From: Antedon mediterranea
Taxonomy: Eukaryota > Animalia > Echinodermata
Assembly: GCF_964355755.1 (NCBI RefSeq)
Contig: NC_092673.1
Span: 8,990,001 to 9,054,000, forward strand
Length of the DNA: 64,000 bases
Direction: 5' to 3'
Positions 7,481-64,000 of the stretch are shown here, piece after piece. Numbering within the stretch: position 1 is the first letter of the stretch; every line of letters starts with the position of its first letter. A program made the translations under genes and the position numbers. Below the pieces are notes generated by a model. That model was not told the origin of the DNA and did not search any database. It saw nothing but the letters and a program-made list of their open reading frames with translations.

Positions 7481-8639
7481 TACAAGCATTTTTTATTTGT
7501 TTCAGGGCTCACCAACAACAAGCAATATCTCAAATACTTAATAGTCAAATTTCAATAGATGTCCTATGTTGTGCTTGGCATGAATGAATTCACCTTCATT
7601 AATAACACAAGTATAGTCTTGTATTCTCATATTTGAACATATTATTGTTTGTATTATAGTCAAGTCAAGCTCTGAAGGGTTGGGGAGGAAGGAGTTCAGG
7701 TGTTTATTTTTATGTCAAAAATGAAGTTATACTACATTATAATTAGTATTATTTACATTTCTATTTTGATAATCCAATGTTAGCAAAATATTTTTGCAGG
7801 TTTAAGTCATTTCTTTTATTGATCATTCAATTGATTTAGTCAGTGATTTAAATTTGAGTTCTTATGTTATTGAGTAATTTTACTTTGATGTGTCCACACA
7901 ATCAAGCATTCATGAATTTAATAATAAAAAAATCAATCTATATTTTATCAATCTGATGTATTGTAACTATTAATAATCTGTTCAAATAATTTCATTTGGC
8001 TTTGTATGATTATTTTTTGATGAAGTTTCTTTTTTTTTCTAAGCCAAAAAAGTATTGTTACATACCACTACAGTTTCAACCTTTCATCGTCAGGTGATTC
8101 ACTCACACAAAATAATAATAATCTTATAATTCCTTGAAAAGAACAGATATTCATTAGGTATTCCTCTTCTTGGATCTTCCTCTTAACTCTCTGTCAGTCT
8201 TTATGATTGCATGTCAAAACTTAACTGTCTGCTTCTGCTTCTAGTTTGGAAACAATTTAGCAATCATTTAAAAATGTTATATTTATTTTGCTGTAGCTAT
8301 GAGTTTGTCAGATAATAGTCTTTGAATTACTGCACTGAATATGTTACCATGACATCCAGCATTTTGAAACGTTCAATGTATTTGAATTTTTCTCTAAAGT
8401 AAATCATCTTCCAAGAGTTAAATTTCTGGCTTTTAGGACTTATACCAGACAGCATTGTTACAACAGCTAAGTAGAAAACTCCAGCTAATGTAGAAACACC
8501 AACTTCTATGTAGTAAATAAAAATCAATACCAGCTAATGTAGAACGGTCAGCAGGTAGTAACGAAACTTGCCTCACAGCTAATGTAGTTAATATTTCTAG
8601 TTACCGTAATGTAGAAAATATTTTATATTTTACAAACCT

Positions 8640-8930
8640 ATGTATAAATGCATCTGATCCAGTAAGATCATTTACAAAATTATCAAAATCTGAGTGAAAT
8701 GTTGACAAACAGGATGGATTGTGAATAATCTGAACAGACAAAAGACTAGCTGTTTACTGAATAGCTGTTGCTATTGCAGTCTCAAGTCTCAACAAAGCTT
8801 TAGTTTTCTGAATGCCCAAATCTGTTCATGATTTCTGCACTTCTGAAAAGGTGGCTTAATGTCATACCAACAAGAATGTGTTTCCACTTACCGTTGTAAT
8901 CCAGTAAAGATAACTAAAAAATAGGGTGAA
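8640..8930 (-). pseudogene. Degenerate Academ transposase fragment
   Basis: Manual translation with stops and frameshifts gives KHILVGMTLSHLFRSAEIMNRFGHSEN*...LETAIATAIQ*...FHSDFDNF..VNDLTG, the Academ region around the first catalytic DN.D motif. Confidence 0.65.
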
Positions 8931-9648
8931 CCTAGAAGAAATTGTAACAGAATTTTTGTTTTGTTTTGTCTGGTAAATATGGTTCAAATGAACATCATAT
9001 CTAACGTTTACCAACTTCGGACATCGGGAAGTGGGTTAATTAGCATAAATTTAAAATGGCCATTTGCTATTTTGAAGCCCCATATCTCCTTGGATTTAGA
9101 CCAGTAAGTGCATTGTGAGTAGATATAAATTAATGTGATATTAAACATTCTAATTAGCATAATTAAATTCCCATATGACGTACCTATGACGTCATATATT
9201 ATGTTATAACTGCTTAAATGGCATTATACACGGCTGTTTCACTCTATGGTTTAATCTAGAAAAAAGTAAAGCACCCGAATCTCCGCGCGAGTTTTCGTAT
9301 TTGTTTACTTTTCAACGAAATATACACACTTAATATGCCTATTTAAATTAAGTTTATGATGTTGTATGTAATTATTATGAAAAAATGAAATAACAATGTG
9401 AATGAAAATTAATTTTAAGTAAGTAAGTAAAGAGTCATATTAAATACAAAAAAATAAAAAATCCAGAATTAACAAAATAATTTACACTCGGAAGTACAAG
9501 AAAAAACAGCGATTTGCGAAGTTGACAAAAACCTTCATAAATATTCAATGTTTTTGGTTACTATTCTAATTTATCATGATGTATAATAACAAATACATAA
9601 AACATTATTTTATTGTGTTTCAAATAATATGACTTTATAAAGATGTCA

Positions 9649-10549
9649 CTAGGCCTAAGTGTCGTATAACATCCCAAAGCCGAACATAGCCAAAGATCTT
9701 TAAACCATACCTTATATATTTTTTTATTTTTTTTTATTTATTTCATACTCATCCAACAGCGAGTAACCCGCCAATTACAGGATGGATAAACTATTTAAAA
9801 TTTCACAAGACAAACATATACACAAGATGCTCTACATAAACAAAGACTTATTATTAAGTCTTTGGGAGTGGAGTTGTAAATTGTCATGAGAAAAAAACCC
9901 TGACATATGACAGGACTTGAACCCAGGACCCTTAGATTGGTAGCCAAGCATCATAACCACCAAGCCACAATACTCGCAAGCAAGCAATTGATTGAAAAAA
10001 TACAGAAATATCGCCATTTGATACTGAATGTGTCGACACGAACAAACGAACAGATATGGAACGCCAAGAGTGCATCATTAAAACTGCATTCGACATATTA
10101 AAAATAAATTTAAAAGAAATAAATATTATACATTACATGGTTAAACCATGGACGTATAATTACATCTCGTCTTCTTATAACGAACAATATAGGCCTACCA
10201 AGCAGCGTGTTGCGAACATGTGCATGGGGAGGGCCATAAGAAAGCTTTACATTTCACACATGCATTGTATACGGTCAAACCTTACCCGCCGCTGAAAAAG
10301 GGGCCGTTTTGACCTGGTTTGCCATGCTTATGATATTTCGTGTGCTAATCGAGTCGAATGCAGTTTTAAAGATGCACTCTTGGCGTTCATATCTGTTCGT
10401 TTTCGTTTGTTCGTGTCGACACATTCAGTATCAAATCAAATGGCGATATTTCTGTATTTTTTCAATCAATTGCTTGCTTGCGATAAGGTATGGTTTAAAG
10501 ATCTTTGGCTATGTTCGGCTTCGGGATGTTATACCACACTTAGGCCTAG
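9649..10549. mobile_element. Foldback element with ~190-bp inverted arms
   Basis: 9649-9714 plus 9974-10094 is the reverse complement of ~10352-10549. The left arm is split by a SINE. Confidence 0.8.
9715..9973 (-). mobile_element. tRNA-derived SINE
   Basis: Minus-strand A box TGGCTTGGTGG and B box GGTTCAAGTCC, with an A-rich 3' tail at ~9718-9742. Removing it restores the inverted arm CCTTA|TCGCAAGC. Confidence 0.8.
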
Positions 10550-10565
10550 GTTAGGCTAGGCTATA

Positions 10566-11126: not shown

Positions 11127-12736
11127 TAATATTTATATAAAAAGAACAAGAATTTTATCTAAAAATGTAATACATTTTTTTTATTAGATTTTCATGACAG
11201 TAAACTCATTATGTCATATCTGCAAGAAAAAATTAAAAATCAAGTTATTTTTTATCATATTTGTCTGAAATTAATGCACAAAACCCCAATTTTATTTGTT
11301 CATCTTGTCGTTTAATCATGTTTAATGTATGGCCTCCGTAATGAATTGGATCAACTGATGTCCATTATGAAGGCTCACCTCGCATTCACGTCTCCAGCAA
11401 TACAAAATGAGATAATACCACCAAAAATATATAAATCAACAGAAGAGTGAACAAGTTGGTTGGTTATTTGAATTGATATACCAATAAAGAAAAGGTGTCA
11501 AGCAGCTTGCCTGTGTTTCAAATAAAGATTTTAAAAAAGAAACAAAATACAAAATACATACTTGTTTTTCTTTCTGAATTATTTGCAGTACCTCAAATAT
11601 GAAATGGTTTCACACATGTGGCCTAGTTGAAATTGCCTAAAACAGTCGGAAAGCCGCTTTGGTAGTGCATCACTGATTTCATTCATTGTGAGGATGTGCT
11701 TCGTGGAAAATGTTTGAATTTTTGCTATTTTAGTACACCTAAAAAATGGTATAATTTTGATATTAGATGAAATCAATAAACGTATTTCAATAGTTGAACT
11801 ACAAGCGTAAATAATGATAACAACTTTCATCTAAATTCCACATTTTTTGGTTTCGAGAAATGTCATTATTTTATGTATAACATTTTTTATTTATATTTTT
11901 TTTTAAATGATGGTAAAAATCATCCCACTAATCAAACCAAACCTACTACATTTCTGTTCTGCCATTTTCAATCTTTGTTTAAGTTTTTACGAACCTGGTA
12001 CGAATCATCCCGAACCAAGCCGTCTCCCTGTTAAATCGGTTCAATCCGGATGTCAATGAAAACAAAGGCCTAGGCCTATATAAAAAAAGTTGGTTTATTA
12101 TTATATTTAATATATATTTTGTCTCTGACTATTAGTAAGTAGCCAAATGAATCGGATACAATTTTGCAATTCACAACAATAGACACATAAATACTGACAT
12201 GAGCCATCTTCTGATACATTTTTATTGATATTTTGCATTAAATCATTGAAGTTCAAATTCAAACAATTACAACAGTATAATTAGATTAGCACATTCAACC
12301 AATACTATTTATGTCTCTTTTTTTTATAATGCACCTTTATTATGCTTGGCTTACTGCACCTTATAAACCTTTCAGTTTACTAATATCTCTAGAAAATTCC
12401 ATAAATAACTATTAAACAACTACTATAACTACATAGAAATTCCATAAATAACTTAAATAATTATAATTGGTTTTTAATAACACCTTCAAATTAACCAACT
12501 TTATAAAAAAACTAGAGGGTACTCCGAGAGTACAAACCTCGATCCGCCTACTGTAAAATTCCCCTACATAAAATGTCCCCGGAATATATATTATATATAA
12601 ATAAAATTGAAACCTACTTAAGTTCAAGGTAATGCACACCATGTCATGGTCAGAGTAGTATGTGTCTATAATCTGAACAGAAATGCATTCTTCTCGGTTG
12701 ACGTAGATGTGATCTAAAAGTCTGTTGGTGTTTTAA

Positions 12737-15700
12737 GAGCCATTGTCTGTAAAAATCAAAGATTTGGTGGCAGATGTAAAAAAATGGATTTCTTTCAAAT
12801 TTTTACCATGAATAGACATTTCAATAAAAAGCATATCTACAACATTCATTTCAATTTTTAGCCTCCGTTGCCATGACAACGGTCAATTATCCAAATTTTG
12901 ATGTTTTTGCCATTTTTCACAGATTTTCTATAGTGAAAAAGTACAAACTTGTATACTTATTTTAACCAAAAATACTTACAGTATACAGTTTTTGTTTATA
13001 GCAGTGTAAACAACATGTATTGAGTTCCATTTAATGTAGAAAAAAAATAAATTACAAAATGGAGTTTGGTTGATACCATTATTTTAAAAAGGGGTGTTTT
13101 TAAAAAATATTTTTTTTATAAAAGTATACCTCATAAACGTACCTATAACTTCCAAAGTGGTGTTTTTAAATCAATGAGGTTTTTTAATTTGATAGTCAAT
13201 AGGTTTGTCAACATTAATCACGAAAAAAACACTGGGGTAAATTTCGTACATAGGTTTTGTGTTGCCAGGAAAATACGAAAAATACAAAAAATATAACAAT
13301 GATATCAACAAACAAAACACATGAAACACAATTTAAATATGGCTAATCCAATAATAAAATGTATATGTGGCTTCTCATAATGCTACTAGAGTCATACGAA
13401 TATTTTAGATAAAATAGGAGAATGTGTTGCCAGGTTTATTTCAATTAATTGCCAGAAAAACAGTATTTTGCATTGAAATATGTAATTGATGGAAAATAAT
13501 GTTAAACTTGGAAATAATTGCGTCAATGGTTTTTATAAATTTTTAAATCTATTTTGTGTAAAGAGATACAGAAAGACCTCCCAAAAAATCTGACCTTGTA
13601 AATAGGTCATTTGAGGTCAAAAGAGGTCAGAATGCAAAACAGGACAGGTCCCCACTTTACTACAACTATTAATGTTTGATCAAAATTTACAAGATAGTTC
13701 ATAACAATTCTCAACAATTTTCTTATTTTACCTATAGTGTTACCTTAGCAACCATTTCTATGTGTAACTAAGGAAAGTAATTTTTTTTTTAACGTAAAAA
13801 ATGGCGTTTTTATAAATACAAAGAATTATTGATTGCATTTGTAATTTTTCTCAATTTTACTTCTACTGCATTCCATTAATGACAAACTTGACCTTGTAAA
13901 TTCATTCATTTTGAGGTCAACATTTTACCCTAGTAACTGTTTCTATGCGAAAATTTCATAAAAATTAAGGGGTTTTTCATAAATACAAAACATTTTTTCT
14001 ACATAGTTTTACAAATTACATTTCTACTTTTTGCCAAATTTACTTTAAATACTGAATCCTAATAATCTCAGAAAGAAAGTCTTGACGAATCTGAATAAAG
14101 GTAAAAAAAATGACCTTTAGTGTTATCTTAAACCTGTTTACGTAACAAATGATATTTTAAAAAAAAATTAAATATGGAGTTTCATGAAAAAAAAAATTGT
14201 TTACATATTGAGGTCAAATGACATCAACATTTTACCTATAGTGTATTGTAGCAACTGTTTCTATACGTAACTAATACAATATTTTTAATATGGGGTTTCA
14301 TGACTACAAACAATTGATTACATAGCTTTACTACCTTTTCCCAAATTTACTTATCTACTGAATCCCAGAAAATGTCTGACCTTGTGAAAGGGTCATTTGT
14401 TGGGTCAAGTTATGTCAAAATGTATTATTTATGTTATCTTAGAACCTGTTTCTATGCATAACTAAGGATAATTGTTTTTTTAAATACAGTTGAACCTCCC
14501 GTAAGTGGCCACCCTCGGGAGCTGGAAAAGTGGCCGCTTACGGGCGGTGACCCCTTACGGGAGGTTCTGCCGATAAAGGGCCAAAATCACTTATTATGGC
14601 TATATACGATATTCTTAACGAAACGAGCCTCTCAATTTTCCAGCTAATTGTAGGCCTATTATTATTTATAATCAGGTGGTTTAGTATTTTTTAGCATTTT
14701 CAGACAAATTTTAAAAACTTTTATCATATGAAAAATGGTCGGTCAAAATCTGTGTAGTTTTCTCATCTCTTCACAGTAATGTTTTTAAAACCTCTTCAAA
14801 ATAAAGCTAATATATAAAGAAATACAATATACATGCACCTCTAATTCATAGGTCCATGCAATAAGTATTGCATTTTTCGATTGGCCGCTTACAAAAAATC
14901 TCATTTTTAGTATAAAAAGGTGCCCGCAGCTGCTTACGGTAAGCACCAAATGCACTAATTAGATAGGAAGAACAAACAGGCTTTTCAAAGTGCGTCCGTT
15001 AAGGGAGGTGGCCGCTGTAAATAAAATATGGGGTTTTCATGAATAAAAATAATCACAGAAGAAAGTGCTTAAGAATATGACCTTGTGAAACGGTAATTTG
15101 AAAATGCAAATAAGGCATGCCTGCTAATAATCTACAAATTTAAATTTGTATGAGATAAATATGCAAAATCTAAAGAATATCTCATTTTTAGTTACCATAG
15201 TAACTGTTGCTATGCATAACTAAGGGAAATTAAATAATTATCAGATAATTATTAATTAATAATTAATACTGAATCCAACCATCACAGTAAAAAAAATATA
15301 GAATTTAAAACCAATATTTAATAATAAAGTGTGATATTTTACATGCTGACCTTAAATGAAATGAAATTTCAAATCAGGGCTTCAATATTTGTTATGTAGC
15401 ATTAACATACCTGAGTATATCATTGACTTTTGATTGGTTCTATTTTGGGGAGGGAAAGTGGTGGATCCAGGACTTTTAAATAGTTAGGGGGTTGAAGGCG
15501 AGGGTCTAAAAACTTGCAGTTTATCTTTTTGTGGTTATAGTTGGTCGGGGTGGGGGGGGGGGGGGTGGTAGTCGAAAGTGGTGGTGGATGGGCATGTGGG
15601 ATCTGCTTAGGTTAGCAAATAAAAGAAGTAAACAAATGAAAGAGGAGCTTCAAAATAAGAGAGGAGTAATCTGTTGCAAAGATTAAAATTCACAACGATC

Positions 15701-16467
15701 TGATAATTTATTCAAGTTTCCCGAGGATATAACCTATAAAATGACATTAAAACTGGGAATTACAGAATCTATAATTAAAAATAATTTTTTTTTCTCACAA
15801 CACAACTAGAACTATATAAAACATTAAGAATTTTTCTGACCAATGAGTTTCAAATCAAATAATCAAAGAAAATAAAATGTTTTTACTAATATACCATGTT
15901 TTTTTTTTTATAAAAATGCCTATGTTTCTCGCAACACTGCTTGTAGATTTTAAATTTACCCCAGTATTTTATTTTAGAAATCAATTATTAAACATTAGAA
16001 CTACCTATTTGTAATAAATCAGCTAAAAAAATACACCACTTTGGGCGTTATGGTGAAGTAAAGTTTAGTTGCATTGAACAATTTAAAAAAAGTGAAAAAC
16101 ACCCCTTTTTAAATAAATGGTATCTCCCAAGGTATGAAATAAAAAAAAATAAAAAAATTTGAAACAGGTACACAATGCATTGTTATTATGCATACACTAA
16201 TTATTTTTTATAATTAAATGAACAACACAAAAATATCGTTCATCAAAGTAGTACCAATATCCATTTTAAAAAACCTTAAAAAAGGACAAAATTTGTCAAA
16301 AACACAAATTTGGCCGTTGCCATGGAAATATACGTGTGAAATAAAAAATACTTCATATCTGATTTCTCTCAACACATATATAGCCATGTGCAAAATTTGA
16401 AAGAAATCCATTTTTTTGAGTCTGCCACTCTTTTTGATATTTCTTTGATTCTTACAGACAATGGCTC
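12737..16467. mobile_element. 3.7-kb non-autonomous TTAA-targeting (Kolobok-like) element with long TIRs, inserted in the Helentron APE domain
   Basis: TTAA at 12733-12736 and 16468-16471. Both termini read GAGCCATTGTCTGTAA(A/G)AATCAAAGA, and imperfect inverted similarity extends ~500 bp. The interior has degenerate tandem repeats. Excising it rejoins GFYQHVK|TPT..LLDHIY. Confidence 0.85.
14487..15017. mobile_element. pogo/Tigger-like (Tc1/mariner) MITE, right TIR partly deleted
   Basis: Starts TA|CAGTTGAACCTC, carries GGCCGCTTAC subrepeats and ends ...CTG|TA. Confidence 0.65.
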
Positions 16468-19255
16468 TTAACATGCTGGTAAAAACCCAACTGATTCATA
16501 ACTTGTAAAATGGAATGATTTGAATTGTTCACAAGATCAAAATTGAAGTCTCCCAGAATGACAGTTAGGATGTCTTTTTGTGTCCTAATTAGGTCTTGGA
16601 GCTGATTGGTAAATGTTACAGGACTCAGAGATGGCAGCCTGTAAACAGTAATCACGTTGACATATGTAGAAGCTTTGGAAATAGATATAGCTGTATATTC
16701 AAACCGTTTTGCAGATAATTTAAGTTCGACAGGTGCAACATTCCGAACAGCTAATGTCATCACACAACCTCCTCGTCCCTGTGTAGAAGGTCTGTCAGCT
16801 CTGAAGCACATTGCGTCTGGAAGTATATGTTGACTGTCAGTGTCATTAAGGTTATGTCCATTTTTCAGAAATGTCTCTACACAACAGAACACATCAGTTG
16901 GAAAAACCATATGATCGAATTTCAAATCTTCAAAATGTTCTAGGTAGGATCGTATATTAAGAAGTCGGATCTTTAAGATAGATTGAAGAGCAACTTGAGT
17001 AGAATGAAGCTCATTGTGTGTCACCAGATTGCTTCTAAGACGATCCATTTCTTCAAGCAATGCTAAATTGACCCAAATGGCACTTGCATCAAATCCAAGA
17101 AGATGTAAATCTTGTAATGTCTTGACTCTGCTGAGTGCGACATAAGCTTGGCCTGGCATAAAACGGCTCTTGCCTGACATTGAAACGATCTTGTTTAAGG
17201 TTTTTTCTTGAACTTTATTGATAGTGCATCCCCAGACTAGCGAAAGAGAGAATTGAGTACGTTTAGCTTCTACTGATCGTCTGTTCTGCCAGCCAAAAAT
17301 TGTACCTCTTGTCTCTTAATCGGCACAGCATCAGGATACATGTTCTTGTACTGACTGTCAGCAATGACTTGTTTTCCAATACGCTCACTGTCAAATTTCA
17401 CCAGTATCACATTAACAGTTTCCCCTGTTGTTTCAATGCCAACAACAGTGCCACAGACTCCATTCGCCAGACCATCAGATACATTGATGTTAAGGGTCAC
17501 CATCACTTTTGCTCCTACAGCAACACAGATACAACCTCTCGCAAGCCTCCAGTGTCTGATGGCTTGGCTGATATAACAACATCGATTAGACCAGTGTGTA
17601 CATCTTTCTTCTTGTCGATAGCTTTAATATAAAACACCTGAGTTGGGAGTTTTTTTAAATGGTCTTGGTTGTGTTCATCGACTTCTTTGTTTGTTTTAAA
17701 GACATGAAGAGCTGTGACTGGATATGATGCATCTGACTTTGACACTAACCTGGATTTTAACAACTTTATATCTTCTTGTGAGCAGCTGGCTGTCCTGAGT
17801 CGCATCAGTAGCTGTGCGAACACTTGATCTTCACTTTGGCGCATGCTTTCTGTCAGTTCCATTAGGTGAAAGTTTTCCTTCCACAGAGAGCAATGGAGCC
17901 TGGCATAGGTATCTGAAGGAAGACCAAACACATGGCTTTGACCAACTGGTTGAAATTGAAATAAATCTCCAACAGCAAAAATACTTAAGCCTCCAAACCG
18001 CGATTCTGGGTCTGATGTTCCAGTAATGTCTTTTAAACGACGGTGAATGTGATATAGAAGATCTGCACCCACCATAAACACCTCATCAATGATGAGAAGT
18101 TTAACTTTCCTAACCTAAACTGCAATGTGCTGAGCTTCTCACTACTGGCTGGGTGGTATTCTTTTCTGCTATTGAGGCCACAAGAAAAGTTAAAAGCCGA
18201 GTGCAGCGTCAACCCTTCTATCCCAAAGGCAGCTGTTCCAGTGAATGCAGTTAACAAAACTAGAAGTTAATCAGGCTCAAAATGTCCTGATAAGGGTTTT
18301 AATAGCTTCATTGTTTCATAATGAACCAGTTTTATAATGTGGCTTTTTCCTACTCCACCAGGTCCACTTAGGAATATTCTGTATTTTGGAGTAGGCTTGT
18401 CATGTTTCAGTGCAAAAACAACGTCTTTACACCACTTTCGATGAAACGTCATAAATTCCATCTGCTTGGTGTTTAATGATCTCATCATAGCTCTGTATTC
18501 TTGAGGGTTCATGAGAACCTTACCATGTTCAGCTGAAAAGCGTGCATGAAGTTCGGACCTATTTGAAGTGGTGGGTCTTTCATTCAGGTCAATATTTACA
18601 TTTTGGCTGTTTTCTGGCACATGTCTTTCTTGAACTACTCTTTCGTCTTCCTGTTCAGCTTGCTGATACCGAATGTTGGTTGAAACAACATCCCAAATAT
18701 CTTCTGCAGGCCCATTCTGCTGCAGGTCATCAAAGGCTCTGTCTATCGCTTCAGTATTCTGACTAAACATACTCTCATTTTTATGGATGATATCCTTCAC
18801 ATGCATAAAATGTTCTTTGAATGAGGAAAAATCGACCTTCAAATCGACATCTTCATTGCGCCAAGGAAAATACAACATAAGCAGGTTTCTGTACTTTTCT
18901 TCACCTTCTGACTTTTCCTTGTGGAACCTAATGACACCGTGCGCTTACCCATGTGTCCTAGACTGTGTTTTAATGTGATTCTTGAGTCCCAGCTTCGTTG
19001 ATATCACTAACATCAAAAACATCTGTAATATCGTTAGCTGCTTCTTCTGCACCACCTCTGGTAGTGTAGTGTAGTGTATGTAGCTGCAAACCAGGCCATG
19101 GACATATTTTCTAGTTCATTTGGATGGGCGACGTATCTGTCAATCAGGGATGTGCAAAAAATATTCTCATCATCATCATTCATATTTTGCAGGATACTAT
19201 TTGGCTTTAGTAGGCAAATTCGTTTCTCCTTTGGGGCAGTATTGACAAACACTAC

Positions 19256-19533
19256 CTGTAAATTAAGAATAAATAAGTGTAAGATAAATTGTAATTTTTA
19301 ACTTTTATATACTATACTATTGTTTTAGGATTCTATAATTGTAAGATGTTTTTTTTTTGTAATTTTTGTGTACTTTTTATCAGTTTATTGTTATGTGACC
19401 CAAGTGGAAATAAGTTTTTAACTTTTCTTGGCATTCCTCGTAATCAATCAAGGCCTGTTTATCAGTGCAATTGTATTATATGTTATTGTTTTAAACCTTG
19501 GATTACCAAATAAAAAAAATCAAATTCAAATAC
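19256..19533 (-). other. Apparent GT-AG intron in the Helentron ORF, containing an opposite-strand LINE 3' tail
   Basis: Minus strand reads AGA AAG|gtatttg...ttcttaatttacag|GTA GTG TTT GTC AAT; removal gives SRK|VVFVNT. The plus strand shows a CR1/L2-type 3' stem (GACCCAAGTGGAAATAAG...CTTGG), AATAAA and a (CAAAT)n tail. Confidence 0.65.
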
Positions 19534-22890: not shown

Positions 22891-23225
22891 TGATTCATAA
22901 TTGCCAGCGATGTAACTGTAACTAACAATAGCTAGGTATGCGCTTGTCTGGCTTTGTTCAGACGCGTGATAAAATGTTCCATCCAGGAACCAAAATGTGT
23001 ACTGTAGTTACTTTCCAGGCAAAGTTTACCGACTGCTCCTCGTGTAGTGTGTGTCGACGTACGCTACACTACAGCAAAAACGAATTATGTTACTTGTTCG
23101 TATGTTCACCAATTTTTAAATTTACAAGTTAACCCTCTATACCGTGGGGCACCTAAAATAAATATTTCATACATTACTAAACAAAAAAACATGCCATTTT
23201 CGCTTAGCCAACATCTTATTGTAGC

Positions 23226-24150: not shown

Positions 24151-24250
24151 AAGTTATTAAATTTTCAATGTCCTGTCCTGTATGTAATGAATGAATGAGG
24201 TGTGGTGCCATCTCGGATCGGATTTCGTCTTCTTGGAAAGAGTTTTCTCC

Positions 24251-47497: not shown

Positions 47498-47668
47498 ATT
47501 TGTTACTTTTTATGTGAATCTCTTTCATAAAAGTACTTGTGAGGCCTAATTCTAAGGAGTGGTATTCAGGATAAAGTTAGTTGGATTAATTTGGAGTCAA
47601 AATACAATGCAGGTGCGAAAGGGAAACATCCCCTGAAACCATGAACGCAACAAATAAACCGTCTATAA

Positions 47669-50600: not shown

Positions 50601-51975
50601 GGTCTCGTCTAGTTCGATTTGATGGTATCCGTTCTTTAGATCGAGTTTGGAAAATATCGTAGCGCCGTTTAGACTGGCAAGGATATCATCTATCGTCGGA
50701 GTGATGTGACGCTCTCGCAGGATTGCCTTGTTTGGTGCTTGCATGTTTACATAAAGCCTGATTTCGTTTGGGCTTTTGTGTTTCTTTCTGACTGTAATGG
50801 GTGAAATCCATGGTGTAGGTTTATCAACTACTCTCTCTATGACATCCAAGCTTTGAAGTCGTTGAGCTCCGCCTCAACTTTCTTCCGAACTTGAAAGGGT
50901 ATTCTTCTGTGTGGTTGGGTTATTGGCTGAATTTCATTGTTGACATGTAGCTTGCATTTCACATTGGCGATTTGTCGAATCGGTCGCTATAGCTTCCTAT
51001 GAGTTGTTCGATTGTTTCGTCTGTTGTGTTTGTTTCACGCTACGTGTATGTCAATCAGGTTTAGTTTTCTTGCACTTGTGAAACACTAATGATTCGTTTA
51101 CTACTACGTAGAAAGTGATTGGCGATTGTTGTAGTTTATTTCAACATGTATTATCCCCAACACGGGGAGCTCTTTTTTGGCACCATAGGCAAATATTTTT
51201 GTGTTTGTGCATTCTAGCTGGGGTTTATTGTTAGGTGATTGTATTTGTTTTCGCTTAAGACGTTTACAGACGCACCAGTGTCTATTAGTATGGTTATCAA
51301 GTCATTGTTGATCTGTAGTTTTACATGTGGTTTGCAAAATGGTTTTTTTTTCTACAATAATTGCAAGTGGCTCTGAATGCTGGGTGGGGATATTCCCCTC
51401 CGCAATTCTAGCATTTCGTTTTTATGTCGGAATATCGTGATTTGGATGTTGGAGTTTGGTGGCGTGTGTTTGTGGAGGAGTCGCCTGGTTTTCTGCGGAT
51501 AGCTTTTGTGTATTGTTCCTCCTCTACTTCTACTTCAATATCAGCGATTTTGTCAAGCTGTGCCATTGCTACGTTGTCGGCCCGTACAATGGTTAGCGCC
51601 TTGTCTAGTGTAAGGCCATCAGTGAGTTTTTTGTTGTTTATGCCGATCGCGTATTAAGCTTTGCTTGAGATCACCAAATTCACAAGTGTCCGCCAGGTTG
51701 TGTAGTGCGGTAACAAATTAATCGATAGTTTCTCCCTGCTTCTGGGATCTGCTATTAAACAAATATCATTCATATGTGATGTTTTTCCGGCCCTCCCAAT
51801 AATTGAAAGTAGGGTAGCAACTCGCTGTGGGTTGCTTTTTTTAGATACCCCAGTGGCCAGCTCAAAATTATCGAATCGTTTTCAGAAATTTCAAAATTTT
51901 TTCCAGGCTTCGCTTAGGTTGCCTGTCAACATGTTCAGCGGTGGTGGCGCTGGGATCATGAATGGCGTCGCCATC
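47669..51975 (-). mobile_element. Ty3/Gypsy element D (gag-PR-RT-RH-IN-3' LTR), 5' LTR lost
   Basis: Gag starts MATPFMIPAPPPL; protease LIDTGAS; RT FSKLDLKNGYHQ; RNase H RYSQTEREALA and TDHQPL; integrase VDF...IDDYSRFP and TDNG. PPT GAAGAGGGA precedes LTR 47669-47813 (TG...CA). Confidence 0.9.
49271..49930 (-). mobile_element. Insertion in Gypsy D RNase H: CR1/L2-type LINE 3' tail plus unidentified sequence
   Basis: 49271-49440 is near-identical to 22409-22568. The flanks rejoin as ASRSL|TTVEQRY. Confidence 0.7.
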
Positions 51976-52639
51976 TTGTTTTGGATTGATGTTAAAAACT
52001 TCTTAGCTTTCGTGATATTAGGTCCTAGGGGGTCTTAGTTTTTGTGATCTTAGGTTTTGTGACACCCGCTCTTGATGTTGTGAATCAGGTGGGTAATATA
52101 TTGCTCCCTAATAACGTATGGCAATCTCCTGGTTAATTTTGGATGAGTATAATTAGGACCCACGTAACCTTCAGTTCACATGCACTTCCTGTTTAAATGA
52201 TTTTAAATTATGACATACAAATATCTTAATTCCATTCCACCACCATGTTTGTTGTCACGATAGATGCTAAACAAATTAAATGTATCAATGTTGTATTGCT
52301 CTATACAGTACTGCAGTATTTTTGGTAACCCACAGCGATATCAGCTTCTTCTAGCTATATTTCAAAAGAATTTACCGTCTTTCTCTACCTTATCATTCAT
52401 TCCCTTGAGAATCGTGTATTAGTTTGACCCACCTTCGTTTTAATGGCATGCCACAAAAAAGTAAAGTTGTTTTTCTTCTCCATCTTTTAGAGGACCAGCA
52501 TTGACCAGCTTGTGTCTATCACCATATTTCTCGTCCACACTTGCTCATAGTTGTCTTCAGTTGCTTTAATGAATGAATTTTTTAGATTATATTTGTTTAA
52601 AGGAATGCTTTCCATTCTATATTCAAATTTTCTAAATTA

Positions 52640-52810
52640 TTGCCGATATGTGATATGTTATATAGTTTTCGGCTGTTTTACTTTATCATTTTGACTTAGC
52701 TTTTTACTTATTTTATTTTGTATCTCCATTGAGATCCATTCACCTACAGCATTTTCATTTTTGTTTAGTAATTTACCTTTGGATTTATAATATATTTGAA
52801 AAAATACAAA
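52640..52810 (-). mobile_element. RTE/RTE-X-like LINE 3' fragment
   Basis: TGTATCTCCATTGAGATCCA...AGTAATTT.CCTTTGGATTTATA is shared with 23445-23520. Confidence 0.55.
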
Positions 52811-54699: not shown

Positions 54700-57600
54700 C
54701 AACAAGGCCTAGCTATCCTTTGTACGCACGCTTCATGCTCTATTAAGCACCCATTGTTCAAGAAAAACGTCTGTTGCTATGGAGACATCAACTCAGCCTA
54801 ACATACAACGGGTTAAACCAGTATTTGACATTCGGAAAAAGGAAGATGAATATCTGAAAGAAGAAGATATCTACTTTGCCTTGGAGCACAAAAAGTGAAA
54901 AACCTATGGAGAATATATATAACAATCATAATGAAAGAGGTAAAGTAATAACTGCAGGCCATAACATTAAAGGAAAGCAAGTACCCTGTCTACAGCTTGA
55001 ACCCATACATAAAATTTAATATAGATGAAAATTCTGTACCGACTCGTTAAAAAAAATAGGATGCAACATCATTGGAGAGATACAACTAGTAAAATTCCGA
55101 ATAAAAGGAAAATTATCCCGTTTTTTGAATTGGGGCCGGACAGTAATTGTAGAACATTTTAAAGGAAGCTTGCTGAGATTTCTTAAGATCAACAGCTTCA
55201 ATTCTAGGCTTTTCCACAGCAACCAAAAGATTTAAGTAACATGCTTTCAGTGTGGTCTTGTAGGGCACAAAATATTTGAGTGCCTTAAAAAGATGGAAAA
55301 TACATACATCTGCCACATATGCCGTAAACCTGGTCACATGTTAAAGCATCTATATAAAGTTACGTATTAAGGGAAAAATTCGTTAAACCGTGCGTTACTT
55401 CTAAAATGTTTACTGCAATACTAAATACTAAATGTTTACTTAATACTAAATCACTTATCTATGATTTCCAATGTGGGTTCCGAGCAAATTTTTCGACAGA
55501 TCTTTGTTTAATTCACCTAACTGACCATATTAAAAAGAATTGGGATAAAGGTAACTTAACAGGTATGATTGTCTTAGACCTACAAAAGGCTTTCGATACT
55601 GTAGACCATTAGATTTTACTAGGCAAAATGAGAGCATTAGGATTGTCCCAAACAGCAATAGTTTGGTTTCAATCATATTTAACAGATGTGGTACTCTTTC
55701 AATGTGGACAAAAATAACATGTGGGGTCCCTCAGGGTCAATGTTGGGCCCACTTTTGTTCTTAATGTATGTGAATGATATGGAATCTGCATTGAGTAGTA
55801 AACTGCTCCTTTATGCCGATGATTCTGCAATAGTTGTATCTGATAAAAAGTGTTGCCAATATACAAAATGTATTGTCAAAAAATTAAAATCTATTAATTT
55901 TTGGTTATTAGATAATAGATTGTCATTGCATCTAGGCAAAACGTATTCAATTCTATTTGGATCTAAACGTAAAGTCAGAAATCAACAAGAATTGAAAGTT
56001 ACATGTAATGATCATATAATCACAAACAAACCGACAGTAAGTTTTTAATAGGACTGGAACTCGATAACAATCTAACTGGAGATTATATAGGTAAACTCAA
56101 GGGTAACTTTTTTATACAGAAATAGAAAGTACTTAACTTTCAGAGATCTTTAAGTTACTAGCAAATAGTTTGGTGTTGTGCCTTTATGATTGTGGTATTC
56201 TGGATTAGAAAAAACATTAAAAGTTAAATTGCAAACTGCACAAAATAAGACGGTCAGATGTATTCTTGGTTTTGAACCAAGGGATCACGTTGGGGCTAAT
56301 GAATTAAACAAACTGAATTGGCTCCCAGTAGATTTAAGAGTTAAACAGATAAAACTTTGTCACATGTATTGTATTATTAATGGATTAAGCCCTACGTTTA
56401 TGAATGATGGTATTAGTAGAGCAAATGTAATTTACCAGTACAATACTAGATTTGCAACTCAATCAATTTATAGACCATATATAGGTAACCACTCCCAAAC
56501 AACCTTTGTTAACACGGCAATAACGTCATGGAATCACCTGCCAAAATTGATACAGTGTTCAGAAACCATCAATCAATTCAAAAGAAATATCAGGAAACAT
56601 CTCAAAGAGGTTATGCTTGAAAGATTATAATTTATATTTATATTGTTACTACATGTGTTATTGTTTATTGTAAATGTTTATTCTTTGTTTTTTTCATCCT
56701 TAAGTTTGACCTTTGGTTACTTTTTTTGTGTTACCCTGAATTCATTCTTTGTATTTTATATGTTGTGTTATTTTGTGAATTCGAATAAAGAGAAGAAGTA
56801 CTCGATGTAAGGGCAAAATTCGGTAAATCGCGCGTTACTTCTAGAATGTTTACTCGATGGTATATAAAGTTGGTTCGTACTTTAAGTACTGGTTTTAACC
56901 ACCTTATGTAACCCTGTTTACTAATTAAATTGAGTTAGATAATTAGTTATTGACAATTAAAACAAATTTAGGTTCAAAGATTTGCCCCAATCGATCGCGG
57001 TATACACTGTCTAATGGATGTCTATCTTGAAAAATACCCGCACACAATAATATATGGATGCTTTGCATTTTCCTATATGATGACCTGTTAGAAGTGAGAC
57101 GGCCGGCCGGGGCGGACCCCTCTGGGATTCAACCAGAGGTATTCAAGTAATAACTCAGAGAGGGCGCATGTCACAACAACATCACGTGACTATGCCATGA
57201 TCAGTGTCGGCAAATCAAGCTGACACCACTACCTTGAAAAAGTGCGATGCTAACGCACGAAACGTTGGTAAGTTCAACGTTTATCTTCACAAATATTTTG
57301 GGAAGGAGATGAATTTTTTCAATTTTTTCTATGAAATGTCGTTTTATAAACAAAACCTAATTTACAAACTTATATTTTCTCTAAAACCTTTTACTTATAA
57401 AATATCTGTATAATATCTAATTATAATTATCATATTTTATATTTGAATTTTTACGTTAATACAATTTGTTTTTATGTTGAGGACCCCTTCTGAAACAAGC
57501 TCTTGAGCTTAAAGTGTTATCCTCTGCTATTCCATATATTGTAACTTATTTTTCTTGTATTATTGTTAATGTACAAATTGTTTGATCTGTCTACTTTTTT

Positions 57601-57833
57601 ATATGGATGGCAATAAATATTAAAATATGACTAATACAATGATAAAATGTTTTACTTCTTTAACATATATGCATCCAACAATACAAAGAAAGGTCTCTTT
57701 TGAAAGAAAGATTTATTACCAATGACGAATTCATAATTATTGGAGGAGATATGAATTGTATCTTAGATAGAAAGTTGGATAAAAAAAATAGTGTGAATCT
57801 ATATGACAGTTCACCGTCTGCTTTAAAAAAAAT
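54700..57833 (+). mobile_element. Fragments of a second L1/Tx1 element (ORF1 54780-55345; APE 57620-57833)
   Basis: KIGCNIIGEIQLVKFRIKGKLSRFLN...CFQCGLVGH...CHICRKPGH is homologous to ORF 40823..41464. IIIGGDMNCILDRKLDKKNSVNLYDSSPSALKK is homologous to ~39440-39530. Confidence 0.8.
55420..56795 (+). mobile_element. CR1/L2-type LINE RT and 3' end fragment
   Basis: FQCGFR..FST...LDLQKAFDTVDH, GSMLGPLLFLMYVND and LYADDS, followed by an AT-rich 3' UTR with AATAAA. Confidence 0.85.
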
Positions 57834-60800
57834 GTAAGTAAGTAATATTTATTGCTTTCCAAGAACAGTACAAATTTATAAAACAGTATAATGTAAATGA
57901 AATAAAATGAGAAAACATTAAATATAATAATACAAGACTAAACTAGAAAATAAGCATGGAAAGCAGGGGATGGCCCTTTAAGCCCAGAGGCTTGTTTCCA
58001 AAGGAGTCCCCAACATGAAAAACAATATTACAATAATTATACAAAAATATAAATCTATTATTATTATATACAGTATTACAAATTAATTTTAATTACATGT
58101 TTGATTTATGCCGAATTCTGATAATCATTGTTATTATAAAAATATCTAATATAATATAATATATAATATATAATTTGCATATTTGTTAATAAAAAAAGAG
58201 TCCTTATTATTTAATATTTGTTATTTCTATTGGTAATTTGTTCCACAGTGTGATTGCATTAAAAAAAAGGTCTTACTAACAGTATATTTATTCATTGGAA
58301 CAATAAAATTACAATCTTTACCTCTAGTACCATGGTTATGATTTATCCTATTGAAATTATTTAACATAAAGTCTGGACAACTTTTTGTATATATTGTCTG
58401 TACGTGTTGTAGTGTCATTTGTTCGGCCCTGGTTTTAACATCTAATAAACCAAGAAAAGTATTATCGTCTTTGGTGATATGGTATCTATTATGTTTCCCT
58501 AAGATGAATCTAATTACTTTATTTTGTGTTCTTTGAAGTTTAGTACGGGAATCCGCGGTTGTACCCTAGTACCAGGATGATATAGCATAATTTATATGGC
58601 TTAGAGCCAGGGCTTCCATTACGAGTTTACGAATACAGCGATCAAAGTTATGACAATTCCTATACAAAATGTAATACGACCATTAACTTTCTTAATAATT
58701 GTTGCGACAATTAATTCACTATTAAGCCTATTGCTTAGTTCGACACCAAGGTATTTTATAGAGCTATTCAAAGAAATTGTATGGCCATTGTAAAGAATGC
58801 TAAAATTTGTGTATTTCTTGAGAGACATCCTGCAAACAACATTAATTCAGTTTTTCCCATGTGAAGTGATAAATTGTTGTCAATTATTCCATTTATTACT
58901 ATTTAAACTGATCCCTTGCAAGATTTTCGCTGATAATATCAGGATCATGATGAGAATTGACAATTTCACTATCGTCAGCATTGCATTAACAATGATGAGA
59001 CGGACATAGGCATATCATTGATGTAGATGACGAACAGGAGTGGTCCTAGGATGCTCCCTTGTGGCACTCCACATACAATTTCTGAAGGCTGTGAAACAGC
59101 CCCACCAATATTAACTGTTTGATGTCTACATTCCAGATATGATTTAAACCAGCTGACAGATTCGATTCCAATTTTTCTGAGTTTCTTACAAAGTAAGTCA
59201 TGACTAACGCAGTCAAAAGCTTTTTGGATGTCAATAAGTAAGATACCAGTAAATTTCCCTTTCGCTGTTTGACTTTTAATGAAGTCTGTCAAGTGAATTA
59301 AACAATGATCTGTAGAAAAGGACTGTCTGAAACCAGACTGAAAACGATATAAAAGTTTGTTCCCTTCCAAAAACTCATTTAATTGTGAGTGAACAATCTT
59401 TTCTACAATTTTTGACACCACCGACAGTATACTGACAGGCCTATATTTAGCAGTTTCAAGATTACTTTTTTTCTTGTAAATTGGTCGAACACGAGCCAAT
59501 TTCATCTCATTTAGAAAAGATTTCGTTTCAAATGAGAAATTGATAATCCGTGTTATGGGAGTTGCAATAATTTCAGACGCATCCCTTAAAAAACGTGCGG
59601 GTATGCCATCTAGACCTGTACTTTTATTTATACCGAGACCCAAGATCTGATCCTTTTTAACTATATCGTTGTTTACAGGTTGCAAGGAAAATACCGTCAG
59701 TACCGTCATAGTATTTTTTTACATTCTCAGAATTTACATTAAATTCGTATGACCTTTGCGGGAGCTTTCTTACCAGATCTGATGCTACGTTTATAAAAAA
59801 ACGAGTTAAAGTGACTGGCAATAATGTTTGGCTCACTACATAGTTTATCATTTATTTTAAGAGTAATCGAAGCAGTTTAATTTTGTTTATTTTGATACCC
59901 AAGATCTTTTATAACCTTCCATAACTTTTAGGGTTATGTTGATTTGTATTGATCTTGTCAATAAAATGAGTCTGCTTTGCTTCTTTTATATTTCTTTGTA
60001 CCTGATTTCTAAGTTTACAATATTCAGTACGATATAATAAATTACGAGTTCTTTTGAATTTTTAAAGATAAATATCCCTGGCCTTAATCATTTTGAGTAT
60101 GTCAGGTGTCATCCACGGCTGAGAAGAGTGTTTAATTCGGACTTCTTTTACAGGAGCAACTTTATCCAAAACATTTGTGAAATTTGCACAAAAGCCTTGC
60201 CACAAACAATCAACGGTTTCTGCCTTGTGAACATTGTCCCAATCAGTCTCTTGAAGAAGACGTATAAATTTTTCTCTATTATAGTTTTTAGTTGATCTAA
60301 TCTTCACCTTTTTATGCGTGTGGTGTTTTTGTCGCTGTGTGTGATGAGTGGCATATATAGGAAAGTGATCACTTAGGCCTATAGATAGCACTCCGAATTT
60401 GTTTAGTTTGTCCGAAAAGTTGGTGATAATATGATCAAGACAAGATTCGCAGGAATCACAGATACGTGTGGGTTCGCTCATAATTTGAGACATTCCGCTC
60501 ATGTGCAGAGTCTGTTGGAATTTGATATAGTTGCTATCCTTTTTCAAGCTACACATGTTTGTATCTCCGAAAATGTAGATCTCTGAGTTTCTCGGTAGTT
60601 GTTCCATAATGTCATCCATTCCATCAATAAATTCACCATGACGTTGTTTTGGTGGCCGATAACAGACTCCAACGATAATAGGCCTTGTTCTTGGGAGATG
60701 TACTTCAGACCATAGTGCCTCAATGTTGTTATTGTCACAGTCAGATCGCATAGTAATGGCCAGGGTATAGACTTGAAGTACAGACATACTCCACCACCTG

Positions 60801-61134
60801 CTCTGGCACGGTCTCGACGATATAGTTAGAAGTCTGGGATGTGTATTTCATTAGTGGTAATGGAACTGTCAAGGTGCGTTTCAGTGACAGGAATGACTGC
60901 GACTTTGGTTCCACCAACAAGTGTTCTAAGTTCAGATATTTTGGGTAGTAGAGACCGCGCATTAACATGAAGAAAATGCATGCCTTTTCCTTTCAGTACC
61001 TCAGCAGGATCAATGGAAATTTCTAGAACAATCAAAGCATTTAAGCTGTTGTCTGTTTTTTGCAATCTTTCTTTCACAAACATGACAAAGAATCGGAGAT
61101 GTATTCCAATTTGAATTGTTGTTATGATTCATGT
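57834..61134 (-). mobile_element. CR1/L2-type LINE (partial PHD - APE - RT), frameshifted; continues at 63996-64000
   Basis: APE HVNARSL, TETHL, CYRPP, GDTN, LDHI, SDH. RT YRPVSIL, DIQKAFD, GVPQGSILGPLLF. 3' stem-loop at ~57965-58012 and (TTAC)n tail. Confidence 0.9.
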
Positions 61135-61144
61135 CTGATTCTGG

Positions 61145-63985
61145 GGGTGTCACGAAAGCTCAGACCACGAAAGCTCAGACCCCTAAGACCTAAGATCACG
61201 AAAGCTAAGACCCAACACCTAAGATTACAAATATTTATCTTTCGCACCTGCCTTGTATTTTAACTCCCAACATTTATTCTGAATACCACACCTTAGAATT
61301 GGCACTTTCATGAAAAAGAATCACATAAAAAGTAACAAATACATTTTTAAATTGATGATTTTACAGACGTTTTTCTCCCACACAAAATGACTAGCCTACT
61401 ACAGTACAGTTGTAGGCCTACCCCATGTTCAATGTTTTTGTTTCTATGGAACGTCAAAAGAGCAAAAAATATATAGAGGGCTGAAAACTCTGTGGAGTCC
61501 ATCTACAGTGTGGATGGAACAATGTAAAATTAAAATTGTAATGATAACAGTATAATCATGCAAGTACGAAGAAATAAATACTGGCAAATAAATTTTAATT
61601 TAAAAATCATGATAAGTTTTTTTGTTTCGTTTTCTTTCTGTTTTTATACTTGTACTATTATTGTTGCTTTTTTGGCGCTCCATAGAAACAAAAACATTGA
61701 GCATGGGGGAGCTCGAGGAGTTACATTGTCATTACAGTATACAAAAAAACACATCTGTAAAATCATCAATTTAAAGGATTTATTTATTTGTTATTATGTG
61801 TTTCTCCTTCTGAAAGTACTTTATTTATTTATTTATTTATTTGGAATTACACCTTTAGATCGGTGGCACACCTAGCACAAAGGTGCATCCTTCACAATAT
61901 AAAATATAACAATTAACAGAAAAGTAATAAAAGGCAAAAGCAACTATCATATCCTACCCCCCCCCCCCCCCCCAATTTACATCGATATATACAGTAGATC
62001 ATTACTTTACACAATGAATACAAAACAAGATATAGTAAAAGTGTATAAAATAAAATAAAATCAGCTGATAAACACAGCTTATTACGAAAAACCCCCAACC
62101 CACTTTTATTTCAATTTACTTAATGTAGCAATGTAGATAACATAGTTATTGAGTCATGGAATTCAGTGAATCATTTCGAAATTGCCATGCTTGTTACTCA
62201 ATATCTGAGTATCCCAAAATATATTTAAGTTTGTCATTTTCAGGAGAAGTATAAAAAGTATCAAACATATCTTTGCTGCCATTTCTATACATATCCACAT
62301 ATAAATGAAATAATTCCTGATTACGTATATTATTTAAAGCTGGACAATTAAGGATGAAATGATGGATGTCTTCGTCCGAATTTGTACCGCACAATTTACA
62401 TTTTTTATTATTATCAATATTCCAATTTGCAGTTCTATCATTCAAAGGTAGAGTATTTGAACGAGCTTTAAATTTTAATGCAGCACCTTCAAAATTAATT
62501 TTATCAATTAAGTAATTTTCAAGTCCAGGTTTTGATTTTAATGTTTCATAGATGTGGAGACTTGATTTATTTTGTAATTCAATTCTCCATTCATCTATCA
62601 TTATATAGTTAAGTTTTCTTAAGATTTCAGAAATTGGAAAGTAGACTTCTTTATAATTTGAGAGAGTGGTGAAAATATTTTTGGATTCACAATTACACTT
62701 CAAGAGAATATCGTTTATACAAGATAGAAACTTATACCTTAAGTCTTTAAATTCACAATTAAGTTGTAGCATTCCAATAAACATAATTTTTGGCCATCGA
62801 TAGTTTTCCATCTTTATAATTCTATGGAAGTATTTCATACGAAGAGCGTTATGAATCTCGTTAATTGGAGACCAACCAAGCTCTCCATATAAGGCGGCAC
62901 AAGGTGTATTTTGAGGTGCTTTTAAGATATAACGTGCCATTTGGAGCTGGAGACGCTCTAGTTTATCTATATCTATTCTACTTAAAGAGCACCATACTGA
63001 ACAACCATAGTTGATAGATGGGAGAACTATCGATCTCCACAGAGTATCTCCATAATATACTCTGTTAAAGTTATCAAAGCTACTGATAATTGATTTAACG
63101 TACGCTATTAATCTTTGACCTTTTTTTATAACATTCTCAATTTGTATATGGTCATTTAATTTACGAGAAATATGTACACCGAGATATTTATATGATTCAG
63201 TTTCAGATATAAAGCCATTACCTAATTTCCATTGTCTTACTTTATCAACACGTTTACCAGTTATCAGTATATTTGACTTTTCAAAATTAAAGCATAATTT
63301 CCATTCCTTAGCAAAATTTCCTGCAAGGTCTAACATTCTTTTCATTTCCAGTTCATTGTTAGCTAATAATACAATATCATCAGCCCAAAAAAGGCTACCC
63401 ATCCATGTATCATTTATTCTAATACCTATATCCTTGGATCTTAACATTTTGGTAAACTCATTTATGTAGATGCTAAATAAAACAGGTGATAAAACGCACC
63501 CTTGCTTTACTCCTTGATCAATGTCAAAAATATCTGTATCAATTATACCAGAGGAGACTTTACCTTTAACATTACTTATAAGTCCTAATTTTAAAGTGTG
63601 GTGTTCAGGATAAAGTTAGTCAACAAATTTGGAATCAAAATACAAGAAAGGCAGGTGCGTAAGAAAAACATCTTCTGAACCAACACAATGGAGTAAATAT
63701 ATACCAACAAACAACCCGTCAAGTTTGTTTGTTGTAAAGAAAAAATATACATTTACTCAACGGGCGAAAATAATGTGAGTTTATCTATGTTTTGCGGTAG
63801 TATTAAATTATATTTATGGTAATAAATGAAACCTACTGTGTTTAAAATTATGTATGGATAAACAAGTATTGTTTTTAAGCTGTAGTATATCTTAGTATTT
63901 GTAATCTTAGGTGTTGGGTCTTAGCTTTCGTGATCTTAGGTCTTAGGGGGTCTGAGCTTTCGTGGTCTGAGCTTTCGTGACACCC
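61145..63985. mobile_element. MULE-like foldback element, copy 2, with 10-bp TSD
   Basis: Near-perfect ~85-bp TIR GGGTGTCACGAAAGCTCAGACCACGAAAGCTCAGACCCCTAAGACC.... TSD CTGATTCTGG at 61135-61144 and 63986-63995. Confidence 0.9.
61820..63575 (-). mobile_element. 5'-truncated RTE/RTE-X-like LINE (RT C-terminal half + CCHC finger) inside MULE-like copy 2
   Basis: GVKQGCVLSP, then ORF 62194..63447 with SLFWADDIVLLA, YKYLG and CKLCG...EDIHHFILNCP. (TAAA)n tail at 61820-61842. Confidence 0.85.
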
Positions 63986-64000
63986 CTGATTCTGGTCCAG

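What the first reader, a model, noticed from the sequence alone, without database searches (positions are those of the whole stretch)
8600..64000. Strand-polarised transposon graveyard right after TRMT1L: candidate flamenco-like uni-strand piRNA cluster
Seen: by my count about 18 independent orientable insertions are on the minus strand versus about 6 on the plus strand. They come from unrelated classes (Helentron, five Gypsy, L1, CR1/L2, RTE-like, three SINEs, Academ). Between 8.6 and 52.8 kb only two small pieces are plus, and both sit inside other elements. Even elements nested within elements keep the same polarity, and almost all are mutationally dead. Established: uni-strand piRNA clusters such as Drosophila flamenco are dense, nested collections of TE fragments oriented antisense to one long transcript. 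Inference: a + strand transcript (TRMT1L read-through or a promoter at ~8-12 kb) would be antisense to nearly every TE here and could act as a TE-immunity memory locus in a lineage where I am not aware of one being described.
Basis: partly seen in the sequence, partly recalled or inferred. Interest (0 to 1): 0.82.

Follow-up and report, generated by a model that had tools for sequence, protein, structure and literature searches.

The report
One-way transposon pile behind feather-star TRMT1L
Just behind an ordinary gene of a feather star, about 40 kb of broken jumping genes nearly all point the same way, a layout that would let a likely read-through RNA act as a source of transposon-silencing small RNAs, but chance and nesting habits explain it almost as well and no small RNA could be checked.

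Summary
The window matches Antedon mediterranea TRMT1L at 100%. The polarity is real: 17 of 21 orientable insertions are minus; in 8.6-53 kb 15 of 16, including 5 of 5 Gypsy. It is weaker than it looks. Seven of 8 LINE/SINE guests copy their host's direction, also in a plus block at 54.8-57.9 kb. Without such guests the count is 11 of 13 (scan-corrected p about 0.03), which picking among windows can supply. No genome was held, so there is no background. The only RNA-like run has a contig that starts at the TRMT1L splice acceptor. It covers the field only in step with DNA copy number, shows no strand and bridges no locus-specific junction. Best reading (0.38): a uni-strand piRNA source made by read-through from TRMT1L, like mammalian piC-DoG or flamenco-type loci. 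Rivals: neutral pile with nesting bias (0.35); intron or lncRNA without piRNAs (0.27). My searches found no crinoid cluster in print. The scan has noted the same kind of locus before in other genomes (two in octopus, behind a gene), all untested. A candidate, not a finding.

The parts
3695..7480 (+). Last four coding exons of TRMT1L (about 3695-3886, 4398-4475, 6497-6865, 7333-7480)
   Evidence: Pfam TRM; 100% to P0001, named Antedon mediterranea TRMT1-like
7481..8590 (+). TRMT1L 3' UTR region; AATAAA at 7923 and 8516
   Evidence: X1 contigs 7333-7806 and 8110-8590; motif positions
9800..9967 (-). tRNA-headed SINE
   Evidence: A/B-box match on minus; high copy in DNA runs
12540..21370 (-). Helitron with endonuclease domain (label Helentron recalled), broken; split by the element at 12733-16471; cut off at its 5' side by Gypsy A
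   Evidence: Pfam PIF1, Helitron_like_N, Exo_endo_phos_2; endonuclease frame resumes left of 12733
12733..16471 (.). High-copy element with inverted ends and TTAA on both sides, no coding found (Kolobok-like, label recalled); no direction
   Evidence: depth in DNA runs
21371..23050 (-). Gypsy A fragment (RT, RNase H); holds a CR1/L2 3' end at 22404-22566 (minus)
   Evidence: Pfam; tail motif; right end by eye
23225..24200 (-). 3' fragment of a LINE related to the one at 61.9-63.6 kb
   Evidence: self-tblastx
24251..25093 (-). Gypsy D: gag remnant between 77-nt LTR-like repeats, 95% alike
   Evidence: no Pfam hit
26160..31450 (-). Gypsy E gag fragment (PNMA-type, label recalled), interrupted by Gypsy B; about 97% alike to part of a 5,720-nt contig of run X1 that lacks the insertion
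   Evidence: joint 26431-31148 in X1 and X3; reading frame; no informative Pfam hit
26432..31147 (-). Gypsy B (protease, RT, integrase), broken; holds a directionless high-copy insert (about 27.6-28.3 kb) and two SINEs (29290-29604 tRNA head minus; 30095-30270 minus by tail only)
   Evidence: Pfam
31500..45500 (-). Large DNA transposon (Academ-like, label recalled), one element split by L1 and by directionless inserts at 32244-33159 and 44356-44888
   Evidence: colinear tblastn to P0014, residues 385-988 and 981-1423 either side of L1; atlas clusters incl. DUF6589; 5' part by eye
33628..41900 (-). L1/Tx1-type LINE, broken, with directionless inserts
   Evidence: Pfam zf-RVT, RVT_1, zf-CCHC; poly(A) end
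45807..52067 (+). Element with inverted ends whose coding remnant (46453-47083) is plus: the one plus piece of the core; host of Gypsy C
   Evidence: tblastn to P0010-P0013, one with DUF6589; ends
47760..51980 (-). Gypsy C (RT, RNase H, integrase), broken; holds a CR1/L2 3' end at 49269-49440 (minus)
   Evidence: Pfam; ends by eye, no LTR pair found
52400..52800 (-). LINE 3' remnant, same family and direction as 23413-23526
   Evidence: self-blastn
54770..57850 (+). Plus block: L1 remnant holding a plus CR1/L2 (55368-56830) and a plus CR1/L2 3' end (57422-57640)
   Evidence: Pfam
57900..61140 (-). CR1/L2 LINE
   Evidence: Pfam
61900..63615 (-). RTE/Jockey-like LINE (label by eye) inside a second copy of the inverted-end family (61144-63986)
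   Evidence: Pfam RVT_1, zf-RVT

Best explanation
A 40-kb nest of broken transposons of many classes lies on the minus strand just behind the plus-strand TRMT1L gene, and it likely serves as a one-strand piRNA source: transcription would run on past TRMT1L's 3' end, read the fragments antisense and feed Piwi proteins with guides against related active elements. Shown: the anatomy, the direction, the nesting order and a fragment about 97% alike to a longer relative in an RNA-like run. Inferred: that antisense insertions were kept by selection in successive waves. Untested: the read-through RNA, its strand, and any piRNA. The transcript would end before about 54 kb, where a plus block begins.
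For: 15 of 16 insertions in 8.6-53 kb are minus; 10 of 11 after dropping LINE/SINE guests; 7 of 8 elements that do not use target-primed insertion; 5 of 5 Gypsy, covering about 31% of 16.4-53 kb. Gypsy C lies against its plus host but with the field. Hosts and guests of different layers agree. The direction is the one a TRMT1L read-through needs, and the field starts about 4 kb behind AATAAA 8516. In mouse, 269 of the top 1,000 clusters lie downstream of genes and the productive ones are rich in antisense transposons (PMC11615739, section 10). In Drosophila, strand-biased LTR fields picked from sequence alone were confirmed by small RNA where data existed (PMC10643416, sections 8 and 24). The Gypsy E piece matches a 5,720-nt contig of run X1 (13 differences in about 380 nt), so a target-like relative exists. 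A 10-of-11 split in a stated direction has likelihood 0.32-0.38 at 85-95% antisense against 0.005 at 50%.
Against: The conservative counts are modest: scan-corrected p 0.029-0.034, about 2-3 expected among 77 windows of equal element number; even the full count (p 0.0033) gives about 3 per 1,000 windows. 7 of 8 LINE/SINE guests follow their host, 2 of 3 in the plus block, as known for Alu/L1 (about 2-fold, PMC2836564). The field is short, about 40 kb, ends in a plus block, and is not Gypsy-dominated. The plus strand is not short of AATAAA (41 seen vs 26 expected in 16.4-53 kb; 22 vs 19 in 8.6-16.4 kb), although TRMT1L's own introns are not short of it either, so this test is weak. In mouse there is no general link between downstream transposon content and read-through.
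Confidence: 0.38

Rival explanations
1. A neutral, gene-free transposon pile. A few hosts happened to share a direction, LINEs and SINEs then inserted in their hosts' direction through target-primed insertion at A-rich strands, and the window was picked from many.
For: Protein-only count 11 of 14 (p 0.057); non-LINE/SINE 7 of 8 (p 0.07); guests follow hosts 7 of 8, in both polarities; scan-corrected p about 0.03. Co-oriented nesting is documented in human intergenic DNA (PMC2836564). The scan lists at least eight such loci in other genomes, so picking is real.
Against: Nesting bias does not cover Helitron, the Academ-like element or the five Gypsy; Gypsy C goes against its host; the direction is antisense to the neighbour gene. 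The human bias is about 2-fold and is reversed for L2 hosts; it has not been measured in crinoids.
Confidence: 0.35
2. The field is a long intron or 3' extension of a plus-strand gene or lncRNA that starts behind or around TRMT1L. Sense insertions were purged because they disturb splicing or polyadenylation, and no piRNAs are made.
For: Intronic LTR and LINE insertions are biased to antisense in other animals (cichlids, PMC4353498, passage). 10 of 11 has likelihood 0.07-0.15 at 67-75% antisense. Low-copy unexplained DNA at 11.1-12.5 kb could hold a non-coding first exon.
Against: No host coding exon was found in 8.6-64 kb: of 383 frames of 50 aa or more, the only strong Pfam hits outside TRMT1L were to mobile-element domains, plus a few weak hits at E 0.003-0.008 taken as noise. 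One frame of 11151-11900 found 0 proteins in 1.84 billion. Short or non-coding exons would be missed.
Confidence: 0.27

Closest known systems
piC-DoG read-through piRNA clusters of mouse, human and hamster (PMC11615739; abstract, sections 9 and 10 read)
   Same: Dense transposon fragments directly downstream of a coding gene, antisense to it
   Different: There read-through and piRNAs were measured; here neither. Mammalian cases are L1/ERV-rich; here five Gypsy, Helitron, DNA transposons and LINEs in an echinoderm
flamenco and flam-like unistrand clusters of Drosophila (PMC10643416, abstract, sections 8 and 24; PMC11400887, passages)
   Same: Nested fragments, all Gypsy on one strand
   Different: About 40 kb and 31% Gypsy, mixed classes, plus block at the end; no ovarian somatic expression or piRNA data
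Uni-strand clusters of slug and planarian (PMC11615739, section 9)
   Same: Invertebrate locus with densely packed fragments on one strand
   Different: Defined by small RNA; no link to an upstream gene stated in the section read
Co-oriented nesting of non-LTR elements (PMC2836564, passages) and antisense bias in introns (PMC4353498, passages)
   Same: Guests follow hosts; LTR/LINE antisense to a transcript
   Different: Those biases are about 2-fold or unquantified in what I read; here 10 of 11 remain minus after guests are dropped

Membership tests
flam-like unistrand piRNA cluster | LTR/Gypsy elements concentrated on one strand | tested here: met
   5 of 5 Gypsy minus, about 31% of 16.4-53 kb; p 0.06 by itself
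flam-like unistrand piRNA cluster | Strand bias standing out in a genome-wide window scan, outside centromere/telomere | not testable with these tools
   No genome held; only a 50:50 simulation
flam-like unistrand piRNA cluster | Long single-strand precursor antisense to the fragments | tested here: inconclusive
   Contigs of X1 cover the field but show no strand, track DNA copy number and bridge no locus-specific junction among the pieces listed
flam-like unistrand piRNA cluster | Abundant uniquely mapping piRNAs from one strand | not testable with these tools
   No small-RNA run offered
piC-DoG read-through cluster | Transposon-dense region directly downstream of a gene, antisense to it | tested here: met
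   Field starts about 4 kb behind AATAAA 8516; 15 of 16 antisense
piC-DoG read-through cluster | Read-through transcript past the poly(A) site, keeping host splicing | tested here: inconclusive
   X1 contigs reach 7806 and 8590; none listed continues into the field
piC-DoG read-through cluster | piRNAs from the last exon and the extension | not testable with these tools
   No small-RNA data
Intron of a plus-strand gene | Flanking exons spliced across the region | tested here: inconclusive
   No coding exon found; no such joint among the 15 + 15 joints shown, 85 + 36 not shown; exons outside the laid stretches cannot appear

The most novel reading that the evidence does not exclude
This is a read-through (piC-DoG-type) uni-strand piRNA cluster in a crinoid: a housekeeping tRNA-methyltransferase gene lends its promoter to a transposon memory locus that has trapped antisense pieces of Gypsy, Helitron, DNA transposons and LINEs, one of them about 97% alike to a probably still transcribed element. 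It would carry read-through piRNA cluster formation, so far described in mammals, to echinoderms.
Probability: 0.3. Interest if true: 0.65.

Novelty: new member of a known kind. Interest (0 to 1): 0.34.

Why it matters
If true, it would be a defined piRNA source locus in a crinoid. [quoted passage not shown] It would suggest that making clusters by read-through from an ordinary gene is older than mammals. One small-RNA library would settle it. If false, it is an ordinary transposon nest that shows how nesting bias and window picking mimic flamenco.

Tried and rejected
Genome-wide background: no genome held. RNA: no RNA holder listed on record, which is no evidence either way. X1 (RNA by guess) behaves as RNA at TRMT1L: a contig begins exactly at the last-exon acceptor 7333, and the depth of the upstream exon bin fits its other 331 letters. 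Its depth over the field follows the DNA run X3 (Spearman 0.95 over bins beyond 8.4 kb). X1/X3 median is 0.12 in 21 low-copy field bins against 0.10 in 30 high-copy bins (p 0.27). Two exon-free low-copy TRMT1L intron bins are lower (0.003, 0.04), too few to use. One field bin (19764-20427) has no X1 cover. Contig depth is a poor measure of expression, so none of this counts for or against transcription. Some X1 contigs come from other copies or alleles, since they lack inserts present here (joints 26431-31148 and 40201-40759). The high X1/X3 bin at 11796-12459 (0.57) is unexplained; it lies beside the Helitron's 3' end. A guess of a plus hAT fragment at 11.2-11.9 kb found no support and was not counted. 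A possible plus tRNA-like SINE near 10.75 kb did not match the A/B-box pattern and was not counted. Two weak plus A/B-box matches (11987, 25366) and one minus match inside the plus CR1 (56268) were dropped as chance. Poly(A)-signal and splice-donor strand counts gave no discrimination. No tRNA genes; 3 weak Rfam matches, all below gathering score. No earlier notes near this place, on piRNA in this genome, or on look-alike stretches.
Full report
Identity and setting. No genome is held for the window. A TRMT1L exon matches P0001, named Antedon mediterranea TRMT1-like, at 100%, and all four exons in the window agree with it. The gene is on plus and stops at 7480. AATAAA lies at 7923 and 8516, and contigs of run X1 reach 7806 and 8590.

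Inventory. All 383 stop-free frames of 50 aa or more were scanned against Pfam. Unassigned parts were read in six frames (part's output was cut and reprinted), searched and compared by tblastn and self-tblastx. Minus, by protein: a Helitron with endonuclease (12.5-21.4 kb), Gypsy A-E, a LINE 3' fragment (23.2 kb), a large DNA transposon colinear with a sea-cucumber protein across its L1 insert, that L1, a CR1/L2 (57.9-61.1 kb) and a LINE (61.9-63.6 kb). Plus, by protein: a DNA-transposon remnant (46453-47083), an L1 (54.8-57.9 kb) and a CR1/L2 inside it. By motif or tail: six minus, one plus. The labels Helentron, Academ, Kolobok, PNMA and RTE/Jockey are recalled and come from no call. Several element ends are by eye. 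Much of the rest is high-copy DNA without direction. Nesting is shown directly: the element at 12733-16471 has TTAA on both sides and splits the Helitron endonuclease; runs X1 and X3 hold the Gypsy E piece without Gypsy B. All 10 coding elements checked are broken.

How much more than chance; 17 of 21 minus (p 0.007); core 8.6-53 kb 15 of 16 (p 0.0005; scan-corrected 0.0033); protein-only 11 of 14 (p 0.057); Gypsy 5 of 5 (p 0.06). The insertions are not independent: 7 of 8 LINE/SINE guests in a coding host share its direction, including 2 of 3 in the plus block. In human intergenic DNA, Alu and L1 nest about twice as often in their host's direction, explained by target-primed insertion, though the bias is reversed for L2 hosts (PMC2836564, passages). 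Without the 8 guests, 11 of 13 are minus (scan-corrected p 0.029), about 2 expected among 77 windows with as many elements. The polarity is thus real in this window but only modestly beyond what picking can give. What nesting does not explain: Helitron, the large DNA transposon and all five Gypsy are minus, and Gypsy C lies against its plus host.

RNA. The run search listed five holders, none on record as RNA and no small-RNA library. X1 has a contig that starts at the TRMT1L acceptor, so it behaves as RNA. I laid 2.5-22.4 kb (3 of 5 runs) and 25.9-45.8 kb (2 of 5 runs). X1 covers dead low-copy parts with near-identical contigs (729 nt with 1 difference; 422 nt with 0). Its depth follows DNA copy number at the same ratio as high-copy repeats, contigs show no strand, and none of the listed pieces bridges two unrelated elements by 31 letters. 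This is inconclusive. One lead: the Gypsy E piece is about 97% alike to part of a 5,720-nt X1 contig (depth 40.7; the joined form has 56.4 in X3), so a longer and probably transcribed relative exists elsewhere, and a plus RNA here would be antisense to it.

Mechanism. I commit, narrowly, to a read-through piRNA source (0.38). Shown: position behind the gene, antisense direction, layered nesting, a target-like relative. Inferred: retention of antisense insertions by selection. Untested: precursor and piRNAs. The piRNA pathway exists in echinoderms (Seawi; about 13,000 piRNA-like RNAs in M. nudus testis; review PMC13666137, passages). Rivals: a neutral pile amplified by nesting bias and picked from many windows (0.35), and an intron or lncRNA without piRNAs (0.27; intronic LTR/LINE antisense bias in cichlids, PMC4353498, passage). 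No host exon was found, but short or non-coding exons would be missed. These odds are my judgement from the likelihoods and rough priors, not a computed result.

Comparison. It resembles mammalian piC-DoG clusters in position and direction (PMC11615739, sections 9-10) and flam-like loci in Gypsy polarity (PMC10643416, sections 8 and 24; PMC11400887, passages). It is smaller and more mixed than flam-like loci and meets only their sequence-level features. Membership needs small RNA. PMC11067994 (mollusc clusters of 2.7-17 kb) was seen as passages. No supplements were read.

Novelty. Searches for piRNA cluster + echinoderm, piRNA clusters/sea urchin/small RNA/unistrand and crinoid + piRNA showed no crinoid cluster, judged from listings; the library lacks most subscription papers. 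Uni-strand clusters are known across animals, so at best this is a new member of a known kind. The scan has flagged the same pattern in several other genomes, all untested; those notes gave me two papers but are not support. Interest 0.34.

Noticed in passing
window 26231-26431 and 31148-31329: About 97% alike to part of a 5,720-nt contig of run X1 whose X1/X3 depth ratio (about 0.7) is far above the usual 0.1: a longer, probably transcribed relative of this gag fragment elsewhere in the genome.
   Followed up: partly
window 45807-52067 and 61144-63986: Two copies of one family with long, internally repeated inverted ends. The first holds a remnant related to 1,000-1,500-aa proteins, one with DUF6589, which also align weakly with the Academ-like protein (25% over 283 aa). 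Superfamily not determined.
   Followed up: partly
window 12733-16471: 3.7-kb high-copy element with TTAA on both sides and no coding found, itself holding further inserts; DNA run X2 has a form lacking 12928-16211.
   Followed up: partly
window 11796-12459: Highest X1/X3 depth ratio of all low-copy bins laid left of the field (0.57), next to the Helitron's 3' end; could be an expressed Helitron end elsewhere or a local exon or start.
   Followed up: partly
window 22404-22567 and 49269-49440: The same short CR1/L2 3' end (90-95% alike) sits in two different Gypsy remnants, in Gypsy A between RT and protease and in Gypsy C within RNase H.
   Followed up: no
window 21756-22400: DNA run X2 has about half of single-copy depth here (154 vs about 290) while X3 does not; possibly a polymorphic insertion, or filtering.
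   Followed up: no
window 9649-10549: Nested inverted repeats (9649-9715/10483-10549 and 9974-10094/10353-10483) around a tRNA-headed SINE: a compound foldback structure.
   Followed up: no
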